The position numbers and the translations under genes are program-made. The notes below the pieces were generated by a model. The model made no database searches. It was not told the origin of the DNA and saw nothing but the letters and a program-made list of their open reading frames with translations. 10,971 nucleotides of DNA from Caedibacter taeniospiralis (GTDB lineage Bacteria; Pseudomonadota; Gammaproteobacteria; Francisellales; Francisellaceae), in the NCBI RefSeq assembly GCF_002803295.2, contig NZ_PGGB02000018.1:18164-29134 (forward strand), given 5' to 3'. Below, one piece after another: positions 232 to 10,126 of the stretch (positions are counted from its first letter, which is position 1; every line of letters begins with the position of its first letter).

Positions 232-560
232 TTTTTATTTCCTAAATACTTCAATCATGGTTTTAAACCAGCTAAAATATTATATCATAACACCTTATTT
301 ATTTGTATTTTTTTAGCCAAAAATCAATATTTTAATAGCCCTGCGTATTAAAAATTTGAAAAATATTCGTGTCTCTCTAGTAGAGAATATAGTACTAATA
401 TTGTTATCATGGAACTACTGTGCTTAAACTCAAAATAGAAGTTGAAAAGACACAGCACTGGCGAGTAGTGGTGTTCATGATCTACCACAGTGCTTTCACC
501 TAAAAATTTTGAATATAGCTTAAAAGAGAGTTATTTAATCTAAAAAATAACGGGAATTAC

Positions 561-1361
561 ATGAAAAATTTAAAGTTGAATAAAGTGATCCTGGCGCTAT
601 TTGCAGTGAGTGCACTTAATGGCATTGCCTTTGCAGAAACAGATGCTGAAAAAATCGTACGCTTAGAGCTTGAATTAAAAGAATACAAAGAGATCTCAAA
701 CAAATATAGAGCTGATTTGGATATATCACATCAAACGTATCAACAATATCAAATAGAAATGGATCAATCATATGCCTTAATAAATGAAAAACTTAAAGAA
801 GTAACTCAGGGATCATACAAAGTTTTTGATGAACAACAAGAGAAATTTGAGAATGAACTTACAGAAGAAGTTACAAAAACCGACAATATTAAAAATAATT
901 TAGATACGATTGGAAATAAAATAAAATCCTTAGAAAAAGAGGAAAAAAAATTAAAAGATGAAAAAAATCAACTGATTAATGATTTCAATCAAAAGATAAA
1001 AAACTTAAATGAAGAATTACTAAAACAAACAGAAGAATCTACACATGAGCTTGATCAAAAAATCAAAGAACTAAATACTGCCAGACAAAACGAAGATGTG
1101 CTAAAAAAACAACTCATAGATATAATTGAGCAACATAAGAAAAATTTAAGTGCGTCTAAAATACGTTTTAAACAGCGAGAAGCAGGTATAGTTGAGCACT
1201 ATAAAACTGTCGGTTCCACATTAGAAGCTCGGCTCAAAGTTATTACTAATACAAAAAGTGTTACAGTAGAACAACTGAAAAAAAATCAGGGTGCCTCGGG
1301 CCTCATGATAGATTTTGTATATCCATACACAAAATCGAATCGGCTATCCTCGGCGGTATAA
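561..1361 (+). CDS. secreted coiled-coil protein; the last ~24 codons and the stop codon lie inside repeat-element copy A
   Basis: ORF track. N-terminal signal peptide MKNLKLNKVILALFAVSALNGIAFA|ETD (K-rich n-region, hydrophobic core, AFA-E cleavage motif). The rest is K/E/L/N-rich and heptad-like. The sequence from codon 244 (GASGLMIDFVYPYTKSNRLSSAV*) is encoded by the GC-rich element starting at 1288. Confidence 0.75.
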   Translation: MKNLKLNKVILALFAVSALNGIAFAETDAEKIVRLELELKEYKEISNKYRADLDISHQTYQQYQIEMDQSYALINEKLKEVTQGSYKVFDEQQEKFENELTEEVTKTDNIKNNLDTIGNKIKSLEKEEKKLKDEKNQLINDFNQKIKNLNEELLKQTEESTHELDQKIKELNTARQNEDVLKKQLIDIIEQHKKNLSASKIRFKQREAGIVEHYKTVGSTLEARLKVITNTKSVTVEQLKKNQGASGLMIDFVYPYTKSNRLSSAV

Positions 1362-1579
1362 ATTTTGCCCGGGCCGCCCGCCTCAACGGTGCTTGTCCTC
1401 ACAAATTCGCTACGCTCATTCCGAACAGACAACACGTTTCCGATTCTACTCTACGCCTTGGGTAAAAGCTTTTTCACAGACTTCGCTCTGGCGCCTTCGG
1501 CACGTCGCTTGCTGATCAACAGCGCAAGGCTACCCGGGTCTACTCGCCCTCGCGTTCCGCTATCCATGGCTCGCAGCGA
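1288..1579 (+). mobile_element. GC-rich non-autonomous repeat element, long form, copy A (292 bp, AGGGTGCCTCGGGCC...GGCTCGCAGCGA)
   Basis: Direct alignment by eye with 7493-7782 (reverse complement) and 6391-6503 (short form). Composition is much more GC-rich than the flanks. Subterminal hairpin GATTTTGTATATCCATACACAAAATC at 1311-1336. No transposase gene inside. Confidence 0.8.
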
Positions 1580-3631: not shown

Positions 3632-3774
3632 TAATGAAATTAGTGTTTTTTTCTTCGACTAAGGAGGATGAGATAACAGTAACACAAATTTGATTTTTAG
3701 CAATTCTGTCATGGTTAACCAGAAAAAGTTCTCAAAAAAAGCATTTTTAAGTGTGTGTTTATGTGTTGCTATTT

Positions 3775-3848
3775 GGCTTTTATTTGATTTAATTATTAAA
3801 TAAATATTTATTATAATTGAATTTTATATGGACAAATAATTACAAATT
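3775..3848. promoter_or_regulatory. nearly pure A/T tract next to the tandem array; candidate DNA-unwinding element
   Basis: The sequence gcttttatttgatttaattattaaataaatatttattataattgaattttatatggacaaataattacaaatt has very few G/C and directly abuts the repeat array. No DnaA box was recognised. Confidence 0.3.
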
Positions 3849-4824
3849 GAGCCATGAGAAATGAGCCATGAGAATGAGCCATGAGCCATTAGCGGATTAG
3901 CTATTAAACCCTTAAGCCATAAGGATTTGAGCCATTACCCATTGAGCATTACCCATTGAGCATTACCCATTGAGCCATTACCCATTACCCATTAGCGGAT
4001 TAGCTATTAAACCCTTAAGCCATAAGGATTTGAGCCATTACCCATTGAGCATTACCCATTGAGCCATTACCCATTACCCATTAGCGGATTAGCTATTAAA
4101 CCCTTAAGCCATAAGGATTTGAGCCATTACCCATTGAGCATTACCCATTGAGCATTACCCATTACCCATTAGCGGATTAGCTATTAAACCCTTAAGCCAT
4201 AAGGATTTGAGCCATTACCCATTGAGCATTACCCATTGAGCCATTACCCATTGAGCCATTACCCATTACCCATTAGCGGATTAGCTATTAAACCCTTAAG
4301 CCATAAGGATTTGAGCCATTACCCATTGAGCCATTACCCATTGAGCATTACCCATTGAGCATTACCCATTGAGCCATTACCCATTGAGCATTACCCATTG
4401 AGCCATTACCCATTACCCATTAGCGGATTAGCTATTAAACCCTTAAGCCATAAGGATTTGAGCCATTACCCATTGAGCATTACCCATTGAGCCATTACCC
4501 ATTGAGCATTACCCATTGAGCATTACCCATTGAGCATTACCCATTGAGCCATTACCCATTGAGCCATTACCCATTGAGCATTACCCATTGAGCCATTACC
4601 CATTGAGCATTACCCATTGAGCATTACCCATTGAGCATTACCCATTGAGCCATTACCCATTACCCATTAGCGGATTAGCTATTAAACCCTTAAGCCATAA
4701 GGATTTGAGCCATTACCCATTGAGCATTACCCATTGAGCATTACCCATTGAGCCATTACCCATTACCCATTAGCGGATTAGCTATTAAACCCTTAAGCCA
4801 TAAGGATTTGAGCCATTACCCATT
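3849..4824. repeat. two-tier non-coding tandem array: 8 x 39-bp anchor units plus 40 x 14/15-bp short repeats (candidate iteron or centromere array)
   Basis: The anchor TAGCGGATTAGCTATTAAACCCTTAAGCCATAAGGATTT starts at 3890, 3993, 4082, 4170, 4274, 4421, 4668 and 4771. Runs of GAGC(C)ATTACCCATT follow the anchors in counts of 4, 3, 3, 4, 7, 14, 4 and 1. Every run except the last is closed by ACCCAT. A degenerate GAGCCAT lead occupies 3849-3889. No ORF is present on either strand. Confidence 0.95.
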
Positions 4825-4835
4825 GAACGAATAAA

Positions 4836-6272
4836 TTATTGAATTTCGTAATACGCGTGTCTACCTTTTCCAAACAATTTAATTTTTGTTTTTGACTTAA
4901 GTCTTTGCAGCCAAATTTTAACCATTTCTCTTGATTTGTCAGGAAATAACTCCATAGCCTCTCTAGTCGTTATTTTACCGTGCTTTTGAATATGTTTAAC
5001 AATCGCATTTTCTGCCAAATTTTCATCGTTTTTTAGTGGTTGATTTGGTTGAGTTTTTTCCTCTAAATCAGGTGTATTTTCCACTTTAATTTCATCATCT
5101 TTTTGAGCTATAATTGCTTCTGCAAATTTCTCTATTGATTGAATAGTAGCGATTTTGCCGTTTAGAAGCTCATCAAGAGACTTTTTTGTTATACTCGTAG
5201 GGTTGTATAGGATGATATCTTTTAATTCAAAGGCGAGCTTCCTAGACGCCTTTAAATCGGTGTTTAGATGATACTGTAGCGTTAATCCATTTTTTCTCCA
5301 CCATTTATTGATTATTTCAAAGTTTTCTTCTGACTGCTTCACTTGTGCTTGTTTTTCTTCATTTAATACCTCTGTATCGTTTGTATTTAAAGGCTTAAAG
5401 CCATTTTCAAGAAGTTTGCATAAATAGCCTGCAAGATTATGAATTTTACTTTTTTTGTTCTCGTTGTAAATTGTCTCAAACCCTTGTTCTATCTTGTTTT
5501 TACCATGTTTTTTAATTAATCCCATAGCGTTTTCTGATGAAAATCCCATATCCATCAATTCAGAAAAACAAAAAAAATCATCATCAAAATCAGTCACGTT
5601 TTCTGCGTAATGAGATTCGTCTGTTTGCAAAATTTCTTTGCGCGCGGTGATGATTGATCTCTTGTTTTCTTCTGTATTCTTATGTAGGGAGCTGTCTACG
5701 CCTTGCAGTGTATGGGTTTGAGAGGTGTTGACAATACACGGTTTGTCCATTTTTTTCCCCGTTTTGTCCATTTTTTTCCCCGTTTTGTCCATTTTTTTCC
5801 CCGTTTTGTCCATTTTTTTCCCCGTTTTGTCCATTTTTTTCCCCGTTTTGTCCATTTTTTTCCCCGTTTTGTCCAAAAAGCCCTGGTTTGTACAATTTTG
5901 GGTTATTTTTAGTTCTGTCTTGTTTTTTTTCTGAATGTTTCTTTTAATAGCTTCGTCAACAACCCATATTTTTCTCTGCAAAATAGAATTGTTGTTGAGA
6001 TCTTTTTTCCGATGAAGATAGCCAAAAGAGGCTAGTTTATCGATATGTCTCTTAATTGATTTTTTACACATATTAAAAAATTTCGCAAAAAAATCGTCAC
6101 TGGCGTAACAAACTCCTTCGTCATTACTCGATAGCATTTTGATTTTAGACAATAGACCAACCTGTATCAAAGACACACCTTCTAACAAAAAATATGACTT
6201 CGGAATTTTTACCATATCCTTTTCTTCATCGTTTAAAACTTGAGTTTGTTTCATGTGATAAATTTGATTCAT
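4836..6272 (-). CDS. HTH-domain replication-initiator-like protein (478 aa) with an internal DKTGKKM x6 repeat
   Basis: The ORF-track start at 6320 is a TTG. The ATG at 6272 is preceded by AAGGAG (plus-strand ctcctt 6281-6286) with 8-nt spacing. The N-terminal segment LLSKIKMLSSNDEGVCYASDDFFAKFFNMCKKSIKRHIDKLASFGYL resembles HTH_36 / phage-plasmid replication-organiser winged helices. A second HTH-like segment lies at the C-terminus (ITTREAMELFPDKSREMVKIWLQRL). The gene abuts the tandem array. The function is inferred. Confidence 0.55.
   Translation of the reverse strand: MNQIYHMKQTQVLNDEEKDMVKIPKSYFLLEGVSLIQVGLLSKIKMLSSNDEGVCYASDDFFAKFFNMCKKSIKRHIDKLASFGYLHRKKDLNNNSILQRKIWVVDEAIKRNIQKKNKTELKITQNCTNQGFLDKTGKKMDKTGKKMDKTGKKMDKTGKKMDKTGKKMDKTGKKMDKPCIVNTSQTHTLQGVDSSLHKNTEENKRSIITARKEILQTDESHYAENVTDFDDDFFCFSELMDMGFSSENAMGLIKKHGKNKIEQGFETIYNENKKSKIHNLAGYLCKLLENGFKPLNTNDTEVLNEEKQAQVKQSEENFEIINKWWRKNGLTLQYHLNTDLKASRKLAFELKDIILYNPTSITKKSLDELLNGKIATIQSIEKFAEAIIAQKDDEIKVENTPDLEEKTQPNQPLKNDENLAENAIVKHIQKHGKITTREAMELFPDKSREMVKIWLQRLKSKTKIKLFGKGRHAYYEIQ
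5739..5874 (-). repeat. 21-bp tandem repeat inside the rep-like CDS (6 perfect copies plus 1 degenerate)
   Basis: Plus-strand CCCCGTTTTGTCCATTTTTTT, with cores at 5757, 5778, 5799, 5820, 5841 and 5862. A degenerate CGGTTTGTCC lies at 5739. It encodes DKTGKKM x6. Confidence 0.95.
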
Positions 6273-6359
6273 TTTTGGGACTCCTTTTTCATGGATTGAA
6301 CAGACCACAGAAGTGAACAAAAAAGCTCTTTCACATCCTGCGATATGATAGTTATTTGA

Positions 6360-6390
6360 GATTTTTGATTTTTGATTTTTGATTTTTGAT
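6360..6390. repeat. 7-bp microsatellite GATTTTT x4.4 upstream of the rep-like gene
   Basis: Direct reading gives gattttt gattttt gattttt gattttt gat. It lies 88-118 nt upstream of the ATG at 6272 and directly abuts element copy B. Confidence 0.9.
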
Positions 6391-6503
6391 AGGGTGCCTC
6401 GGGCCTCATGATAGATTTTGTATATCCATACACAAAATCGAATCGGCTATCCTCGGCGGTATAAATTTTGCCCTCGCGTTCCGCTCTCCATGGCTCGCAG
6501 CGA
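6391..6503 (+). mobile_element. short form (113 bp) of the GC-rich repeat element, copy B
   Basis: It has the same left 82 nt and right 31 nt as the long copies. It lacks the central 179 bp, and the junction falls in a shared GCCC. Confidence 0.8.
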
Positions 6504-6516
6504 GCGATATCCCTAT

Positions 6517-6693
6517 TTAGGCATGATTATTTTCATCGGTGTGCTCAATATCTTTTTCAATAATTTGAACTTCCTTTTCAACGAATTTTGCACCTTCTTC
6601 GGCGAGTTTAATCTCAACCAGTGGACCTATCGTACATCCTCCTAGAATGATTGATAAAGATAGCACTGTCAAAACTTTTGAATATTTTTTCAC
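6517..6693 (-). CDS. small lipoprotein (58 aa: MKKYSKVLTVLSLSIILGGCTIGPLVEIKLAEEGAKFVEKEVQIIEKDIEHTDENNHA)
   Basis: Hand translation; not in the supplied ORF track. GTG start at 6693. Canonical lipoprotein signal peptide (KK n-region, hydrophobic core, lipobox L-G-G-C). TAA stop at 6519-6517. It lies antisense to the element-seeded plus-strand ORF 6418..6645. Confidence 0.55.
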   Translation of the reverse strand: MKKYSKVLTVLSLSIILGGCTIGPLVEIKLAEEGAKFVEKEVQIIEKDIEHTDENNHA

Positions 6694-6754
6694 TTTAATT
6701 TTCTTAAAAAGAAATTACATATTATATATATAAAATAAATATATTTTAATTGCA

Positions 6755-7306
6755 TTAACTTTCTAGTTCATCTTTGTTTTTTGTATCCTTAAAAAAAATT
6801 TTTGGTCTCCCTCTTGGTCGCTTTGGTTTATCTTCTATCGAAGATTTTTGTACTATTTTTTTTGGACGACCCCTTGGCTTCTTATCTAAATTATCAACGT
6901 AATCCAAGAGATTATCTGGATTAGGAATATGTGCTTCATCAGAAATCAAGGCTTTAAATTCATTTGCAAATTTAAAAAGCACTACGCGTTTCTCTCTCGG
7001 CTTTATTTTTTCCATAGTACGTGGGTTATGAGCATTTTTTCTAAAACTTACTCGTGTCTCAAAGCGCCCAAGCCCTTCAAGTAAAATAATCCGATTATTA
7101 AGCAACTGCTCACGTAAAAGATTCATTAACTCATAAAAGAAATGATTACAATCTTCTCTACTAAATTTCGTCTTGAGTGATAAATGTTTAATCAACTCAT
7201 TTCGACTCATAGATCGATTATCTTTCTTACATGGTCTTCCCCTACCCCTTTTAAGCACTTCTTGTTTGTCATTTTCTTGATTTAGTTTTTTTTCTGCGTT
7301 TATCAT
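6755..7306 (-). CDS. HU/IHF-fold DNA-binding protein with N- and C-terminal AT-hook extensions
   Basis: The core MSRNELIKHLS...LEGLGRFETRVSFRKNAHNPRTMEKIKPREKRVVLFKFANEFKALI follows the HU/IHF pattern (MNKxELI start, GxGxF, R..RNPxT.E.I.I, V.FK). AT-hook-like RGRGRPCKK sits before the core, and PRGRPKK and PRGRPK after it. The internal Met33 is an alternative start. Confidence 0.7.
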   Translation of the reverse strand: MINAEKKLNQENDKQEVLKRGRGRPCKKDNRSMSRNELIKHLSLKTKFSREDCNHFFYELMNLLREQLLNNRIILLEGLGRFETRVSFRKNAHNPRTMEKIKPREKRVVLFKFANEFKALISDEAHIPNPDNLLDYVDNLDKKPRGRPKKIVQKSSIEDKPKRPRGRPKIFFKDTKNKDELES

Positions 7307-7380: not shown

Positions 7381-8021
7381 TCACTTCCAACTCGCGATTT
7401 CAGCAATTCTCTTGTCTGAATTCAAACGATTTTTTATGGCTTCTGCTCTTTTCAACGTGTTTTCTATGTAAACATCATCAGAATTTATACACTCGCTGCG
7501 AGCCATGGAGAGCGGAACGCGAGGGCGAGTAGACCCGGGTAGCCTTGCGCTGTTGATCAGCAAGCGACGTGCCGAAGGCGCCAGAGCGAAGTCTGTGAAA
7601 CAGCTTTTACCCAAGGCGTAGAGTAGAATCGGAGGAGTGTTGTCCGTTCGGAATGAGCGTAGCGAATTTGTGAGGACATGCCGAGGAGGCGGACGGCCCG
7701 GGCAAAATTTATACCGCCGAGGATAGCCGATTCGATTTTGTGTATGGATATACAAAATCTATCATGAGGCCCGAGGCACCCTATTGAGTTTATTCTCAAA
7801 GGACACTCTGTTTGATGCACTTCTTGATAACACTCAACCATTTCCAGGGTCAGCGATCCTCTTGAGTGTTTCTCTTTTAAATATTCAATATCTGACCACC
7901 GTGCTTTACGGATGTCATCTCTGTAAAAATTCATGAAACTTCTTTTTGTTTCAAACACCCCGTAACGTTTATTGATTGCTCTAATAAAAAAATCGTCAAA
8001 AGTTATCACCATCTTATTCAC
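7381..8021 (-). pseudogene. small hypothetical gene interrupted by element copy C; the N-terminal part is fused to element-encoded residues in the 154-aa track ORF
   Basis: Native codons run from 8021 (GTG; or more likely the ATG at 8012, preceded by AGGTGA) to 7783. The element occupies 7782-7493. The downstream tail CINSDDVYIENTLKRAEAIKNRLNSDKRIAEIASWK* (7491-7381) is in frame with the upstream part once the 290 bp are removed. Confidence 0.6.
7493..7782 (-). mobile_element. GC-rich non-autonomous repeat element, long form, copy C (290 bp, inverted relative to A)
   Basis: Its reverse complement aligns end to end with 1288-1579. The first ~89 nt are identical. About a dozen substitutions and a 2-nt indel are clustered in the central segment. 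Confidence 0.8.
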
Positions 8022-8097: not shown

Positions 8098-8445
8098 TTA
8101 TACCGCTCGAAGGTAATATGAATATTCATAACCGTCTTTGGTTAATTTCTTCTCCCACGAGCTCAAATGCTCTGGCATGAACAGCGTTTCTTTATTTTTA
8201 ACACTTTCTACAGGATACGTATACGGCTTCTTCGTGTAAAAAATTCCCGTGTACCGATAGCCAATAGGTAAACTATCTTTTTTCTTTTCAAAACAGACTA
8301 TCGCTTCGTTAAAATACGAAATCACCTTCTTAAATTTTTCTTCACCTGAATAATCAATCAACACTTTTTCTTTCTGCATAATAAGCTCAATAATACGCTT
8401 TATGTTTTGGATGTCTGTTTTTAGCTTTTGACGTTCACTACTCAT
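8098..8445 (-). CDS. hypothetical protein (115 aa), translationally coupled to the upstream gene
   Basis: The ATG at 8445 overlaps the upstream TAG (8440-8438) as ATGAGTAG. AAGGAG lies 10 nt upstream. No recognisable family. Confidence 0.6.
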   Translation of the reverse strand: MSSERQKLKTDIQNIKRIIELIMQKEKVLIDYSGEEKFKKVISYFNEAIVCFEKKKDSLPIGYRYTGIFYTKKPYTYPVESVKNKETLFMPEHLSSWEKKLTKDGYEYSYYLRAV

Positions 8446-10126
8446 TTTTTCTTATCTCCTTTTCTTTTTCACGTTGTTTTTGTTTTAAAGCTTCAATGGA
8501 TTTTTGAGCTTCGATGTGGCTTGTTGCCTGTTGTTCTTGACAGCTATAACCATCAACCAAAGCCCAATGCCGTTTTTTAAATGTTCCGATAAAGACATGC
8601 TTAGGATTATTAATCGCTTTTTCATCCCACCTTTTACTTATATCTTCCCATTGATAAGTCATTTGATGTTCAAAATGCCTTAAGAAAATTTGCAGTTGAA
8701 GTGGGTTCATTTCTATGTTATTTTCTTCAGCGTTAATTTTGATTTTATTGATGTCCGATGAATAGAAGGGTGCTTTCCCCATGCTTTTCAATAGGTCGTT
8801 GATTTTGGTAAGGTCGATGGTTTCGTAAGTAAGGTCAAGATTAACATCGCTTAGATTGACATGACTTAAAGTCAGAGAGTCTGTTTTGTTTAATTCATCT
8901 CTAGTGGTTTCGTTTGTTTTAGTTGCTTCTGAGTTATTTAAAGTAATTTTTCTTAAATCATGATTTTCTTTAACGAGCAGTTCGTATTGCTCTTTTATAA
9001 ATTCCAATTCTTCTGTTAATTTTTCAACGTCATTAGATTGACTATATTTAGAACTGTCTGTTTTTTCATCTTGTCCCATATTACATAACATACTATGCTC
9101 TTCTATTTTATCTATATTATAAATATGGGAGTCGCTTTCATTTTTTTGTGGTGTGTTTTTTTCAAAGTCACCTTGTGTACTTTGTAGGCTTTTTACGTAC
9201 TCAAAAACGTCTGGTCTGATCTGATATTTTACCCATCCATTTCGACCTGTTTTACGCTCGTAAACTGAAATGTAGTTCTTCTTTTTGAGGCGGTAAATTG
9301 CTTTTTTTACAATGTCTTTATTAGATTTTATCTGCTTAATTATATTGTTAGTGTTGATATGACATGTGATTAGTAAACATAAATTTTCTAAGCTAGAAAT
9401 CATAATTCTTATAACTATAAATTGACACCCGTTCAGTTGGATTTTATTTCCTGTTTCTTGAGACATGTCCTCCGTTTTGTCCCCTATTTCTTGAGACATG
9501 TCCTCCGTTTTGTCCCCTGTTTCTTGAGACATGTCCCCCGTTTTGTCCCCTATTTCTTGAGACATGTCCTCCGTTTTGTCCCCTGTTTCTTGAGACATGT
9601 CCTCCGTTTTGTCCCCTGTTTCTTGAGACATGTCCCCCGTTTTGTCCCCTGTTTCTTGAGACATGTCCTCCGTTTTGTCCCCTGTTTCTTGAGACATGTC
9701 CCCTGTTTTGTCCCCTGTTTCTTGAGACATGTCCCCTGTTTTGTCCCCTGTTTCTTGAGACATGTCCCCCGTTTTGTCCCCTGTTTCTTGAGACATGTCC
9801 CCTGTTTTGTCCCCTGTTTCTTGAGACATGTCCCCTGTTTCTTGAGACATGTCCCCCGTTTTGTCCCCTGTTTCTTGAGACATGTCCCCCGTTTTGTCCC
9901 CTATTTCTTGAGACATGTCCTCCGTTTTGTCCCCTGTTTCTTGAGACATGTCCCCCGTTTTGTCCCCTGTTTCTTGAGACATGTCCCCCGTTTTGTCCCC
10001 TGTTTCTTGAGACATGTCCTCCGTTTTACCGTGGTTATTTATAAATGGGTTATCCCATGGTCGATATTTTTTAGGAATATATTCTTTTTTAGACACTAAA
10101 ATAGTGATGTTTTCAATTTTAGGCAT
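8438..10126 (-). CDS. repeat-containing winged-helix protein in the ParB position (562 aa); candidate centromere-binding or Rep-like protein
   Basis: The ATG at 10126 lies 1 nt after the parA stop codon (TAAAATG). Residues 37-230 are 18 tandem DMSQETGDKTG/E units. An HTH-like segment follows (IKQIKSNKDIVKKAIYRLKKKNYISVYERKTGRNGWVKYQI). No ParB/Spo0J motifs were recognised. Confidence 0.7.
   Translation of the reverse strand: MPKIENITILVSKKEYIPKKYRPWDNPFINNHGKTEDMSQETGDKTGDMSQETGDKTGDMSQETGDKTEDMSQEIGDKTGDMSQETGDKTGDMSQETGDMSQETGDKTGDMSQETGDKTGDMSQETGDKTGDMSQETGDKTGDMSQETGDKTEDMSQETGDKTGDMSQETGDKTEDMSQETGDKTEDMSQEIGDKTGDMSQETGDKTEDMSQEIGDKTEDMSQETGNKIQLNGCQFIVIRIMISSLENLCLLITCHINTNNIIKQIKSNKDIVKKAIYRLKKKNYISVYERKTGRNGWVKYQIRPDVFEYVKSLQSTQGDFEKNTPQKNESDSHIYNIDKIEEHSMLCNMGQDEKTDSSKYSQSNDVEKLTEELEFIKEQYELLVKENHDLRKITLNNSEATKTNETTRDELNKTDSLTLSHVNLSDVNLDLTYETIDLTKINDLLKSMGKAPFYSSDINKIKINAEENNIEMNPLQLQIFLRHFEHQMTYQWEDISKRWDEKAINNPKHVFIGTFKKRHWALVDGYSCQEQQATSHIEAQKSIEALKQKQREKEKEIRKNE
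9437..10027 (-). repeat. 33-bp tandem repeat inside the CDS (16 full units, one 21-bp unit, one degenerate terminal unit)
   Basis: GAGACATG recurs at 9460, 9493, 9526 and onward with a 33-nt period, with a single 21-nt step (9823 to 9844). The plus-strand unit is CCCCTGTTTCTTGAGACATGTCC[C/T]CCGTTTTGT. Confidence 0.95.

What the first reader, a model, noticed from the sequence alone, without database searches (positions are those of the whole stretch)
3849..4824. About 1 kb two-tier satellite-like array directly downstream of the rep-like gene
Eight 39-bp anchors alternate with runs of 4, 3, 3, 4, 7, 14, 4 and 1 copies of a 14/15-bp repeat (GAGCATTACCCATT or GAGCCATTACCCATT), 40 short units in total. 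Each anchor contains the dyad CCTTA-N5-TAAGG and a TTAGC-GGA-TTAGC direct repeat. Each run starts with the 15-bp variant, and every run except the last is closed by ACCCAT. The short unit itself has a 7-nt sub-period (GAGCCAT and TACCCAT), and a degenerate GAGCCAT lead precedes the array at 3849-3889. The array is non-coding. It ends 11 nt from the stop codon of the rep-like gene and is bordered on the other side by an almost pure A/T tract. Typical plasmid iteron sets have a handful of 17-22-bp units. Forty short sites plus eight dyad anchors is far larger and hierarchically organised. It could be an oriV, a centromere for the ParA system, or a titration (handcuffing) array for copy-number control.
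Basis: seen in the sequence. Interest (0 to 1): 0.8.

Follow-up and report, generated by a model that had tools for sequence, protein, structure and literature searches.

The report
Amplified iteron array beside plasmid replication gene
The 1-kb repeat array is real and sits on the R-body plasmid of the Paramecium symbiont Caedibacter taeniospiralis, where it is most likely an eight-fold amplified set of binding sites (replication origin plus copy-number control) for the replication-initiator-like protein encoded right next to it.

Summary
There are 8 identical 38/39-bp anchors, 40 short units (21 of 15 bp, 19 of 14 bp) in runs of 4,3,3,4,7,14,4,1, a degenerate lead and an AT-rich tract. The window is plasmid pKAP51 of Caedibacter taeniospiralis. 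The array is base-for-base identical in the independently sequenced pKAP298, so it is not an assembly artefact.

The array is tied to the neighbouring gene. That 494-aa protein has an N-terminal HTH_36 domain like those of phage replication initiators and a C-terminal winged helix. Its closest full-length homologue (about 25-28% identity, metagenomic contig L004) is followed by the same layout. The first TCAATGG core lies 8 nt after its stop codon (9 nt here). Then come 14-bp tandem units, GCTAATCYGCT and an AT-rich stretch, but only one module of five units. No ParA gene lies on that contig.

Best reading (confidence about 0.55): an iteron-type origin and control region whose ancestral module was amplified eight-fold. 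The extra sites probably titrate or handcuff the initiator. A centromere role is not excluded.

It is a new variant of a known kind. Unit length, site number and the interleaved palindromic 39-mers are atypical, and the two site classes recall Vibrio cholerae chromosome II. Binding and replication are untested.

The parts
3770..3848 (.). AT-rich tract (89% A+T) at the end of the array far from the rep-like gene; candidate DNA-unwinding element. It holds one inverted copy of TTTGTCCAT (3828-3836), the core of the in-gene 21-bp repeat. It also lies upstream of the Rpn gene start (3631).
3849..3889 (-). Degenerate lead: GAGCCAT / GAGAA(A)T heptamers.
3890..4808 (-). Eight identical 38-nt anchors (starts 3890, 3993, 4082, 4170, 4274, 4421, 4668, 4771). 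Each has the direct repeat ATTAGC-GG-ATTAGC (GCTAATCCGCTAAT in gene orientation) and a 23-bp dyad AAACCCTTA-AGCCA-TAAGGATTT. The GCTAATCYGCT part has a counterpart after the L004 array.
3928..4823 (-). Forty 14/15-bp units in eight runs: 3928-3992, 4031-4081, 4120-4169, 4208-4273, 4312-4420, 4459-4667, 4706-4770 and 4809-4823. In gene orientation the units read TCAATGG-GTAATG(G)C, with 33 full TCAATGG cores spaced 14 or 15 bp apart. Run 6 is an internal duplication, (LSLSSSL)x2, where L is the 15-bp and S the 14-bp unit.
4836..6320 (-). Rep-like gene, 494 aa. It has an N-terminal HTH_36 / phage replication-initiator-like domain, a 7-aa x6 linker repeat, a central UBA-like region shared with homologues, and a C-terminal winged helix (residues 431-494).
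5742..5875 (-). Perfect 21-bp x6.4 repeat inside the rep-like gene. This is a rival or additional iteron set, as in lambda O.
6755..7306 (-). HU/IHF-family protein with three RGRP AT-hook-like motifs; a possible accessory architectural protein. HU-family genes also lie near rep homologues in L006 and L007.

Best explanation
The array is the cis-acting binding-site region of the adjacent replication-initiator-like protein, that is, an iteron-type origin and control region.

Inferred history. The ancestral module is still seen in single copy next to a distant homologue. It consists of a few 14-bp direct repeats with a TCAATGG core that start 8-9 nt after the rep stop codon, then GCTAATCYGCT, then an AT-rich unwinding stretch. 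In the Caedibacter plasmid this module gained a 23-bp palindrome and was amplified eight-fold by unequal recombination or slippage.

Inferred mechanism. Initiator monomers coat the 14/15-bp units through a winged-helix domain. The C-terminal winged helix is favoured, because only homologues with a similar one carry TCAATGG arrays. A dimeric form, or the second DNA-binding domain, reads the palindromic anchors. The module next to the AT tract opens for helicase loading, possibly helped by the plasmid's own HU/AT-hook protein. The other roughly 35 sites act as a sink and pairing surface (titration or handcuffing) that holds copy number low.

What is shown: the anatomy, the identity of the array in two plasmids, initiator-like domains in the neighbour gene, and conserved synteny in one homologue. 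What is inferred: binding, origin firing and copy-number control.
For: - The array sits 11 nt after the stop codon, with no terminator in between, and an 89% A+T tract lies at its far end.
- The neighbour protein passes the Pfam HTH_36 gathering score. It matches PHROG replication-initiation and O-like families and the N-terminal domains of phage proteins annotated 'replication initiation protein'. HTH_36 Rep proteins are a recognised plasmid initiator class (PMC3832669).
- The C-terminal 60 residues fold as a winged helix (pLDDT 73-90; Foldseek rmsd 1-2 A to AspA, DsrD, ArsR/MarR and DIP2311).
- The homologue P0015 (E 4e-10) in locus L004 has the same layout. Its first TCAATGG core is 8 nt after the stop (9 nt in the window). 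A perfect 14-bp x5.2 array follows, then GCTAATCTGCT (10 of 11 matches to the anchor) and an AT-rich stretch.
- The local alignment score between the two regions is 82. Shuffles gave 43 +/- 6.7, and 0 of 3140 real control segments reached 82 (maximum 74).
- L004 carries a Xer-like recombinase, a LuxR-like protein and an MFS transporter, but no ParA.
- The units and anchors occur nowhere else on the 49-kb plasmid.
- Precedents exist. SaPI iterons lie immediately 3' of rep and are read by a C-terminal winged helix (PMC9371898). Extra initiator sites restrain initiation in V. cholerae chromosome II (PMC3401445).
Against: - There is only one informative comparator locus. The second full-length homologue (L005) shows no array in the 242 bp before its contig ends, and the shorter homologues (L006-L008) have none.
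- Unit length (14/15 bp), number (40) and lack of helical phasing depart from classical iterons (PMC4980987).
- No DnaA box with one mismatch or fewer occurs anywhere in the window.
- Cumulative GC skew of pKAP298 turns at about 36 kb and 12.5 kb, not at the array. Those points coincide with switches in gene orientation, so this is weak evidence.
- A perfect 21-bp x6.4 repeat inside the rep-like gene could be the real origin, as in lambda O.
- No binding or replication data exist.
Confidence: 0.55

Rival explanations
1. The array is the partition centromere of the plasmid's ParA system. A centromere-binding protein (the 562-aa or 115-aa product downstream of parA, or the winged helix of the Rep-like protein) coats the heptad-based repeats, and ParA segregates the complex.
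For: - It is the only non-coding repeat array on the plasmid.
- No iterated motif lies in the parA upstream region.
- parA, the 562-aa ORF, the 115-aa ORF, the HU gene, the rep-like gene and the array all lie on one strand.
- The 7-bp sub-period recalls heptad centromeres such as the pSM19035 omega sites and pTAR (own knowledge, not tested here).
- The C-terminal winged helix is structurally similar to the centromere binders AspA and TubR, though these are generic winged-helix matches.
Against: - The array is 3.3 kb and at least three genes away from the end of the par operon (8098).
- No unit copy sits at the parA promoter, as type Ib autoregulation would predict.
- The homologous module in L004 accompanies the rep homologue with no ParA on the contig.
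- The proteins in the ParB position have no recognisable ParB or ribbon-helix-helix domain.
Confidence: 0.15
2. The true origin is the 21-bp x6.4 repeat inside the rep-like gene, as in lambda O. The downstream array is then purely a negative-control and incompatibility locus, like P1 incA or F incC.
For: - The 21-bp repeats are perfect and lie in the linker after the N-terminal DNA-binding domain.
- Homologues carry 21-bp repeats at the same position (L007 x3.7 perfect, L004 x2.6).
- The N-terminal domain matches PHROG 'replication initiation O-like' families.
- The core 9-mer TTTGTCCAT recurs once, inverted, in the AT tract beside the array, one of only two non-repeat copies on 49 kb.
- P1 incA lies directly downstream of repA (own knowledge).
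Against: - The in-gene unit and the array unit share only AATGG-like fragments, so recognition by the same domain is not evident.
- The sequence following the in-gene repeats is not AT-rich (57% A+T).
- The in-gene repeats may simply encode a disordered linker; a similar repeat sharing 13 nt sits in the unrelated 562-aa ORF.
- The L004 module has the classical layout of iterons plus an AT-rich stretch downstream of the gene.
Confidence: 0.15
3. The large size has no function. A small ancestral iteron set expanded neutrally (slippage, unequal crossing-over, weak selection in an obligate endosymbiont), and most copies are dispensable satellite DNA.
For: - Copies are perfectly identical (8 of 8 anchors; only two unit variants), and run 6 is an obvious internal duplication.
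- Two other perfect tandem expansions lie in nearby genes, which suggests a repeat-prone replicon.
- The homologue manages with five units.
Against: - The array is identical in two plasmids that differ elsewhere by an insertion, a transposon and point changes. That argues against rapid drift in copy number, although about one difference would be expected in 976 bp.
- Extra initiator sites are rarely neutral in iteron systems.
Confidence: 0.1
4. The array is a phage-type packaging (pac/cos) or other recombination site of the defective prophage from which the plasmid is thought to derive.
For: The plasmid carries terminase and other phage-like genes. Some pac and cos sites contain repeated terminase-binding motifs (own knowledge).
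Against: - The terminase genes are more than 4 kb away, with four unrelated genes between them and the array.
- The L004 homologue has the module without any phage structural genes on its contig.
- No tyrosine or serine recombinase lies next to the array in the window.
Confidence: 0.03

Closest known systems
Iteron-type plasmid origins and control loci (F ori2/incC, P1 oriR/incA, R6K, RK2, pPS10)
   Same: Direct repeats lie next to the initiator gene beside an AT-rich stretch. Surplus repeats outside the minimal origin restrain initiation by titration or handcuffing. A palindrome related to the repeat is available for dimer binding.
   Different: Units are 14/15 bp rather than 17-22 bp. There are 40 units plus 8 anchors rather than 2-7 (PMC4980987). 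There is no 11/22-bp phasing and no DnaA box. The initiator is not of the Rep_3/RepE type: it has HTH_36 at the N-terminus and a second winged helix about 350 residues away.
Vibrio cholerae chromosome II origin (RctB with 11/12-mers and 29/39-mers)
   Same: There are two classes of site in one origin region: short iterons that vary by one nucleotide in length, and sites of about 39 bp that act negatively. One multi-domain initiator with several winged-helix surfaces reads both classes (PMC3401445, PMC5397143).
   Different: The protein has no similarity to RctB. The units contain no GATC. The anchors are strictly interleaved with unit runs and repeated eight times. Function is untested here.
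SaPI (staphylococcal pathogenicity island) origins
   Same: Short iterons begin immediately downstream of the rep ORF and are read by a C-terminal winged-helix domain, with an AT-rich region as part of the origin (PMC9371898).
   Different: SaPI Rep is a self-loading helicase, its 6-12 iterons flank a central AT region, and they point in opposite directions. Here there is no ATPase domain, all units have one orientation, and the AT tract is at one end.
Lambda O-type origins
   Same: The N-terminal domain of the protein matches O-like and DnaD-like phage initiator families. A perfect repeat set lies inside the gene after that domain.
   Different: The array under study is outside the gene and about ten times larger than the four lambda iterons.
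Heptad or short-repeat plasmid centromeres (pSM19035 omega sites, pTAR parS, F sopC)
   Same: They have long runs of short direct repeats with a 7-bp sub-period. F sopC has repeated dyad-containing units.
   Different: The array is not adjacent to the par operon, no recognisable ParB or RHH partner is present, and the homologous module travels with rep rather than with parA.

Membership tests
Iteron-type oriV / control region | Multiple direct repeats close to the initiator gene | tested here: met
   40 units starting 11 nt after the stop codon.
Iteron-type oriV / control region | Adjacent A+T-rich unwinding region | tested here: met
   3770-3848 is 89% A+T. An AT-rich stretch also follows the L004 module.
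Iteron-type oriV / control region | Cognate initiator with (winged) HTH DNA-binding domain encoded alongside | tested here: met
   HTH_36 scores 32.8 bits against a cut-off of 25. PHROG replication-initiation families match, as do phage initiator N-terminal domains. The C-terminal winged helix is supported.
Iteron-type oriV / control region | Repeat set co-inherited with the rep gene in relatives | tested here: inconclusive
   Present in 1 of 2 full-length homologue loci (L004 yes; L005 has none within the 242 bp before the contig end). Absent from 3 shorter homologues that lack the C-terminal winged helix.
Iteron-type oriV / control region | Classical dimensions: 17-22 bp units, 2-7 copies, helical phasing | tested here: not met
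   Units are 14/15 bp and number 40. Anchor spacings are 88-247 bp with no constant phase. Reference values come from PMC4980987.
Iteron-type oriV / control region | Host-factor boxes (DnaA) | tested here: not met
   No TTATCCACA match with one mismatch or fewer in the window.
Iteron-type oriV / control region | Initiator binds the repeats; the fragment replicates autonomously or exerts incompatibility | not testable with these tools
   Needs EMSA or footprinting and mini-replicon assays.
Plasmid partition centromere | Site immediately up- or downstream of the parAB operon | tested here: not met
   The par operon ends at 8098 and the array starts at 4824. The HU gene, a small ORF, the rep-like gene and a MITE-like element lie between them.
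Plasmid partition centromere | Recognisable centromere-binding protein (ParB HTH, RHH, ParR) | tested here: inconclusive
   The 562-aa and 115-aa ORFs have no ParB or RHH hit in Pfam, PHROGs or NCBIfam. The only homologue found was the protein itself.
Plasmid partition centromere | Site copies at the par promoter (type Ib autoregulation) | tested here: not met
   No unit or anchor occurs outside the array on pKAP298. The parA upstream region has only AAAACTTTAA x2.
V. cholerae chrII-type dual-site origin | RctB-family initiator | tested here: not met
   No RctB or related family hit.
V. cholerae chrII-type dual-site origin | Two site classes: short iterons with 1-nt length variants plus ~39-bp sites | tested here: met
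   14/15-mers and 38/39-mers are present. This is a resemblance of layout only.
SaPI-type origin | Iterons on both sides of a central AT region in opposite orientations; Rep is a helicase | tested here: not met
   All units share one orientation and the AT tract is terminal. No ATPase domain was found.
CRISPR array | Identical repeats separated by unique spacers | tested here: not met
   The 'spacers' between anchors are themselves runs of two repeated units. No Rfam family matched the window at gathering threshold. The presence of cas genes was not specifically tested.

The most novel reading that the evidence does not exclude
An initiator family unrelated to RctB has independently evolved a two-site logic. 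One protein with two widely separated winged-helix domains reads 14/15-mer iterons with one domain and a 23-bp palindrome inside each 39-mer with the other (or as a dimer). The number of interleaved modules then works as a recombination-tunable rheostat for plasmid copy number in an obligate endosymbiont. The same protein-coated kilobase might also serve as the segregation handle for ParA.
Probability: 0.15. Interest if true: 0.7.

Novelty: new variant of a known kind. Interest (0 to 1): 0.45.

Why it matters
pKAP plasmids carry the R-body killer trait of Paramecium symbionts, and how they replicate and are kept at low copy number is unknown. This work pins the cis-acting region to a specific neighbour protein and provides a one-module homologue for comparison. 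That gives a concrete, testable replicon: rep, array and AT tract. If the interleaved iteron and 39-mer design works as proposed, it would be a second, independent example of the two-site initiator control so far best known from Vibrio cholerae chromosome II. It would also be an extreme case for studying titration and handcuffing. It could supply a replicon for genetic tools in Fastidiosibacteraceae and related intracellular bacteria.

Tried and rejected
- **DNA-level relatives.** Two tandem units were searched as a pattern. Viral and metagenome contigs gave 0 hits. Genome contigs gave one exact two-copy match in a Synechococcus MAG (L003), with no array and taken as chance.
- **Periodic TCAATGG core in viral contigs.** The pattern found 40 loci. 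None encodes a Rep-like relative. The best ones are 7-bp heptad arrays between phage head genes, or coding repeats, so they were rejected as unrelated.
- **Protein-based searches.** The word-index searches returned only the plasmid's own protein and, with the alignment, P0015. Scans for related loci in metagenome and viral contigs found nothing. tblastn against plasmids found only pKAP298 and one weak N-terminal match.
- **RNA reading.** No Rfam family matched. The anchor and a whole module fold no better than shuffles as single strands (z -0.3 to -1.0). The dyad is therefore read as a protein operator, not a structural hairpin.
- **Coding reading.** No ORF of 60 aa or more crosses the array.
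- **DnaA boxes.** None found.
- **GC skew.** It turns where gene orientation switches, so it does not locate the origin.
- **Structure.** The full-length AlphaFold model was poor (pLDDT 41.7), and only the C-terminal 60 residues are usable.
- **Literature.** The primary pKAP298 paper (Jeblick & Kusch 2005) is not in the held library. I could not check whether it mentions the array. The held papers that cite pKAP298 and that I read (PMC7297999, PMC3583457) say nothing about an origin or iterons, and a search for 'Caedibacter' plus 'iteron' returned only an unrelated Wolbachia paper.

Full report
**Source and reality of the feature**

The window is 99.9% identical to plasmid pKAP298 of Caedibacter taeniospiralis (NC_005915.1), the R-body 'killer' plasmid of a Paramecium endosymbiont. 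It is not the same sequence. It carries a 292-bp insertion at 1287-1578, resolves two N positions, and differs by 7 substitutions and 2 single-base indels. Its 562-aa protein is on record from a 41,651-bp C. taeniospiralis contig. That matches pKAP51 of strain 51K, assembled from Illumina and Nanopore data (PMC7297999). None of the differences falls in 3849-4824. Two independent sequencing efforts therefore give the same array, base for base.

**Anatomy**

- There are 40 units, 21 of 15 bp and 19 of 14 bp, in runs of 4,3,3,4,7,14,4,1.
- Each run opens with the 15-bp form, and all but the last are closed by an extra TACCCAT.
- A degenerate lead occupies 3849-3889.
- TRF sees periods 7, 14, 15, 29 and 89.

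- The dyad extends to 9-nt arms (AAACCCTTA-N5-TAAGGATTT).
- Run 6 is a tandem duplication of a seven-unit block.
- In the orientation of the neighbouring gene, the unit is best written TCAATGG-GTAATG(G)C. This gives 33 full TCAATGG cores spaced 14 or 15 bp apart, with the 1-nt length difference lying outside the core.

Further observations:
- No ORF of 60 aa or more crosses the array.
- No Rfam family matches it.
- The anchors fold no better than shuffled sequence.
- There is no terminator between the gene and the array.
- The far flank, 3770-3848, is 89% A+T.
- Units and anchors occur nowhere else on the 49-kb plasmid.
- It is the only non-coding tandem array on the plasmid.

**The neighbour gene**

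The 494-aa ORF (4836-6320, minus strand) passes the Pfam HTH_36 threshold. It matches PHROG families annotated as replication initiation, O-like. Its N-terminal domain aligns to phage proteins annotated 'replication initiation protein'. HTH_36 proteins are a recognised class of plasmid initiators (PMC3832669).

An exhaustive HMMER search found mostly low-complexity matches to its heptapeptide repeat. It also found two full-length homologues, P0015 and P0050, at 24-28% identity by alignment, and three shorter ones.

The alignment shows a conserved C-terminal module. In the AlphaFold model this is the only confident part (pLDDT 73-90, helix-helix-helix-hairpin). It superimposes on winged-helix DNA binders at 1-2 A, and sub-threshold Pfam winged-helix hits agree. 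The protein therefore has two separated DNA-binding domains and no ATPase domain.

In pKAP298 a 1-nt indel at window 4968 removes this C-terminal domain from the annotated CDS. Whether that is real or a sequencing error is unknown.

**Comparative evidence**

The contig that encodes P0015 (L004) shows the following order after the gene:
- The stop codon.
- 8 nt of spacer (9 nt in the window).
- A perfect 14-bp x5.2 array, TTTCAATGGTCACC.
- TTTG.
- GCTAATCTGCT, against GCTAATCCGCT in every window anchor.
- An AT-rich stretch.

The period, the 7-nt core, the start position, the follow-on motif, the order and the orientation are all the same as in the window.

A local alignment of the last window module plus its flank against this region scores 82. 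Mononucleotide shuffles gave 43 +/- 6.7. None of 3140 real 300-nt segments from loci not chosen by pattern reached 82; the maximum was 74.

L004 also encodes a LuxR-like protein, an MFS transporter and a Xer-like recombinase, but no ParA. The other full-length homologue (L005) has a divergent C-terminal winged helix and no array in the 242 bp before its contig ends. The short homologues lack the C-terminal domain and have no 14-bp array.

The sample is small. Arrays appear in 2 of 2 proteins with the 'GKGR-wing' winged helix and in 0 of 4 others. This pattern is what one would expect if that domain reads the TCAATGG units.

**Interpretation**

The most economical reading is an iteron-type origin and control region belonging to the adjacent initiator, in which a single ancestral module has been amplified eight-fold and has acquired a palindrome.

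Classical iteron origins hold 2-7 repeats of 17-22 bp (PMC4980987). Here there are 40 units of 14/15 bp, so this is not a standard member of that class.

Two precedents make the layout plausible.
- SaPI origins consist of short iterons immediately 3' of rep, read by a C-terminal winged helix (PMC9371898).
- The V. cholerae chromosome II origin combines short iterons that vary by one nucleotide with inhibitory 39-mers. Both are bound by one multi-domain initiator (PMC3401445; PMC5397143).

By analogy, the module beside the AT tract would fire, and the remaining sites would titrate or handcuff the initiator. The plasmid's HU-family protein with three RGRP motifs (6755-7306) is a candidate accessory factor, and HU-family genes also accompany the rep homologues in L006 and L007. 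All of this mechanism is inferred.

**Rivals**

*Centromere for ParA.* This remains possible. No other candidate site exists and the parA promoter region lacks repeats. Against it are the position of the array, the L004 synteny and the absence of operator copies.

*Origin inside the gene.* The perfect 21-bp x6.4 repeat inside the rep-like gene (5742-5875) could be the real origin, as in lambda O, leaving the array as a pure control locus.
- Homologues carry 21-bp repeats at the same place.
- The core 9-mer recurs once, inverted, in the AT tract 12 nt from the array.
- However, the in-gene repeat is not followed by AT-rich DNA, and it may simply encode a linker.

*Neutral expansion.* Neutral satellite-like expansion would explain the size but not the conserved module.

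*Packaging site.* This is unlikely given the distance from the terminase genes.

GC skew is uninformative because it follows gene orientation. No DnaA box is present.

**Novelty and verdict**

The sequence has been public since the pKAP298 record. I found no description of the array in the held literature. I could not read the original 2005 paper.

The feature is a real, stable and highly unusual repeat organisation. It is most probably a new variant of iteron-type replication control attached to a barely characterised initiator family. It is of moderate interest: surprising in scale and layout and directly testable, but within a known conceptual framework.

Noticed in passing
window 5742-5875 (inside rep-like ORF); L007 1-77; L004 3348-3401; window 3828-3836: A perfect 21-bp x6.4 repeat (DKTGKKM) lies in the linker of the rep-like gene. 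Homologues carry 21-bp repeats of different sequence at the same position. The core 9-mer TTTGTCCAT occurs on the 49-kb plasmid only in these repeats, once at pKAP298 position 5285, and once inverted in the AT tract next to the array. These may be lambda-O-like in-gene iterons.
   Followed up: partly
window 9450-10027 (562-aa ORF downstream of parA): A 33-bp x17.5 in-frame repeat (GDKTGDMSQET) shares the 13-mer CCCCGTTTTGTCC with the 21-bp repeat of the rep-like gene. The two proteins are otherwise unrelated. The 562-aa protein has no homologue other than itself, and pKAP298 has Ns and a frameshift here.
   Followed up: partly
window 1287-1578, 7490-7782 (inverted), partial 6391-6503; pKAP298 21746-22038, 25356-25650, 33112-33404, 38841-39162: A roughly 293-bp GC-rich MITE-like repeat element is present. 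The copy at 1287-1578 is an insertion absent from pKAP298 and alters the 3' end of the 266-aa ORF. One pKAP298 copy lies just upstream of a reverse-transcriptase gene (39601-40626). No Rfam family matched the window copies.
   Followed up: partly
window 4968: pKAP298 has one extra G here relative to the window. This truncates its annotated rep-like CDS (437 aa) and removes the conserved C-terminal winged helix. It may be a sequencing error or a real difference between strains.
   Followed up: no
window 6755-7306: An HU/IHF-family protein carries three RGRP AT-hook-like motifs in N- and C-terminal extensions. HU-family genes also lie near rep homologues in L006 (6151-6483) and L007 (2256-2573).
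   Followed up: partly
window 417-479 and 2714-2776: A 63-nt inverted repeat (86% complementary) brackets the block that holds the two plus-strand ORFs and two small minus-strand ORFs. Its right arm overlaps the 3' end of the Rpn-family gene.
   Followed up: no
window 6360-6390 and 6660-6760: (GATTTTT)x4.4 and the most AT-rich stretch of the window (about 90% A+T) lie upstream of the rep-like gene. These could be promoter elements or an alternative unwinding element.
   Followed up: no
L010, L017, L022, L027, L040 (IMG/VR contigs), e.g. L040 2130-2370: Related prophage-like contigs carry a non-coding block of about 20 TCAATGG/TCAATGA heptads followed by about 25 heptads of a different, AT-rich ATCATT/TTCATT type, between two head-gene-like ORFs. 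No Rep-like relative is present, so TCAATGG heptad arrays also occur in unrelated contexts.
   Followed up: partly
L003 5843-5870 (Synechococcus MAG RKSC01000049.1): There is an exact two-copy tandem of the 14-bp unit TGAGCATTACCCAT with no further array. It was taken as coincidence.
   Followed up: yes
L004 4410-4434 and 4800-4825; L005 1804-1837 and 2165-2180: In both full-length homologues a 12-bp in-gene repeat (TGAGGCGGTGAG, coding SEAV repeats) has an inverted, related copy (CACCGCCTCACCG / TACCGCCTTACCG) just downstream of the gene. Its meaning is unknown.
   Followed up: no
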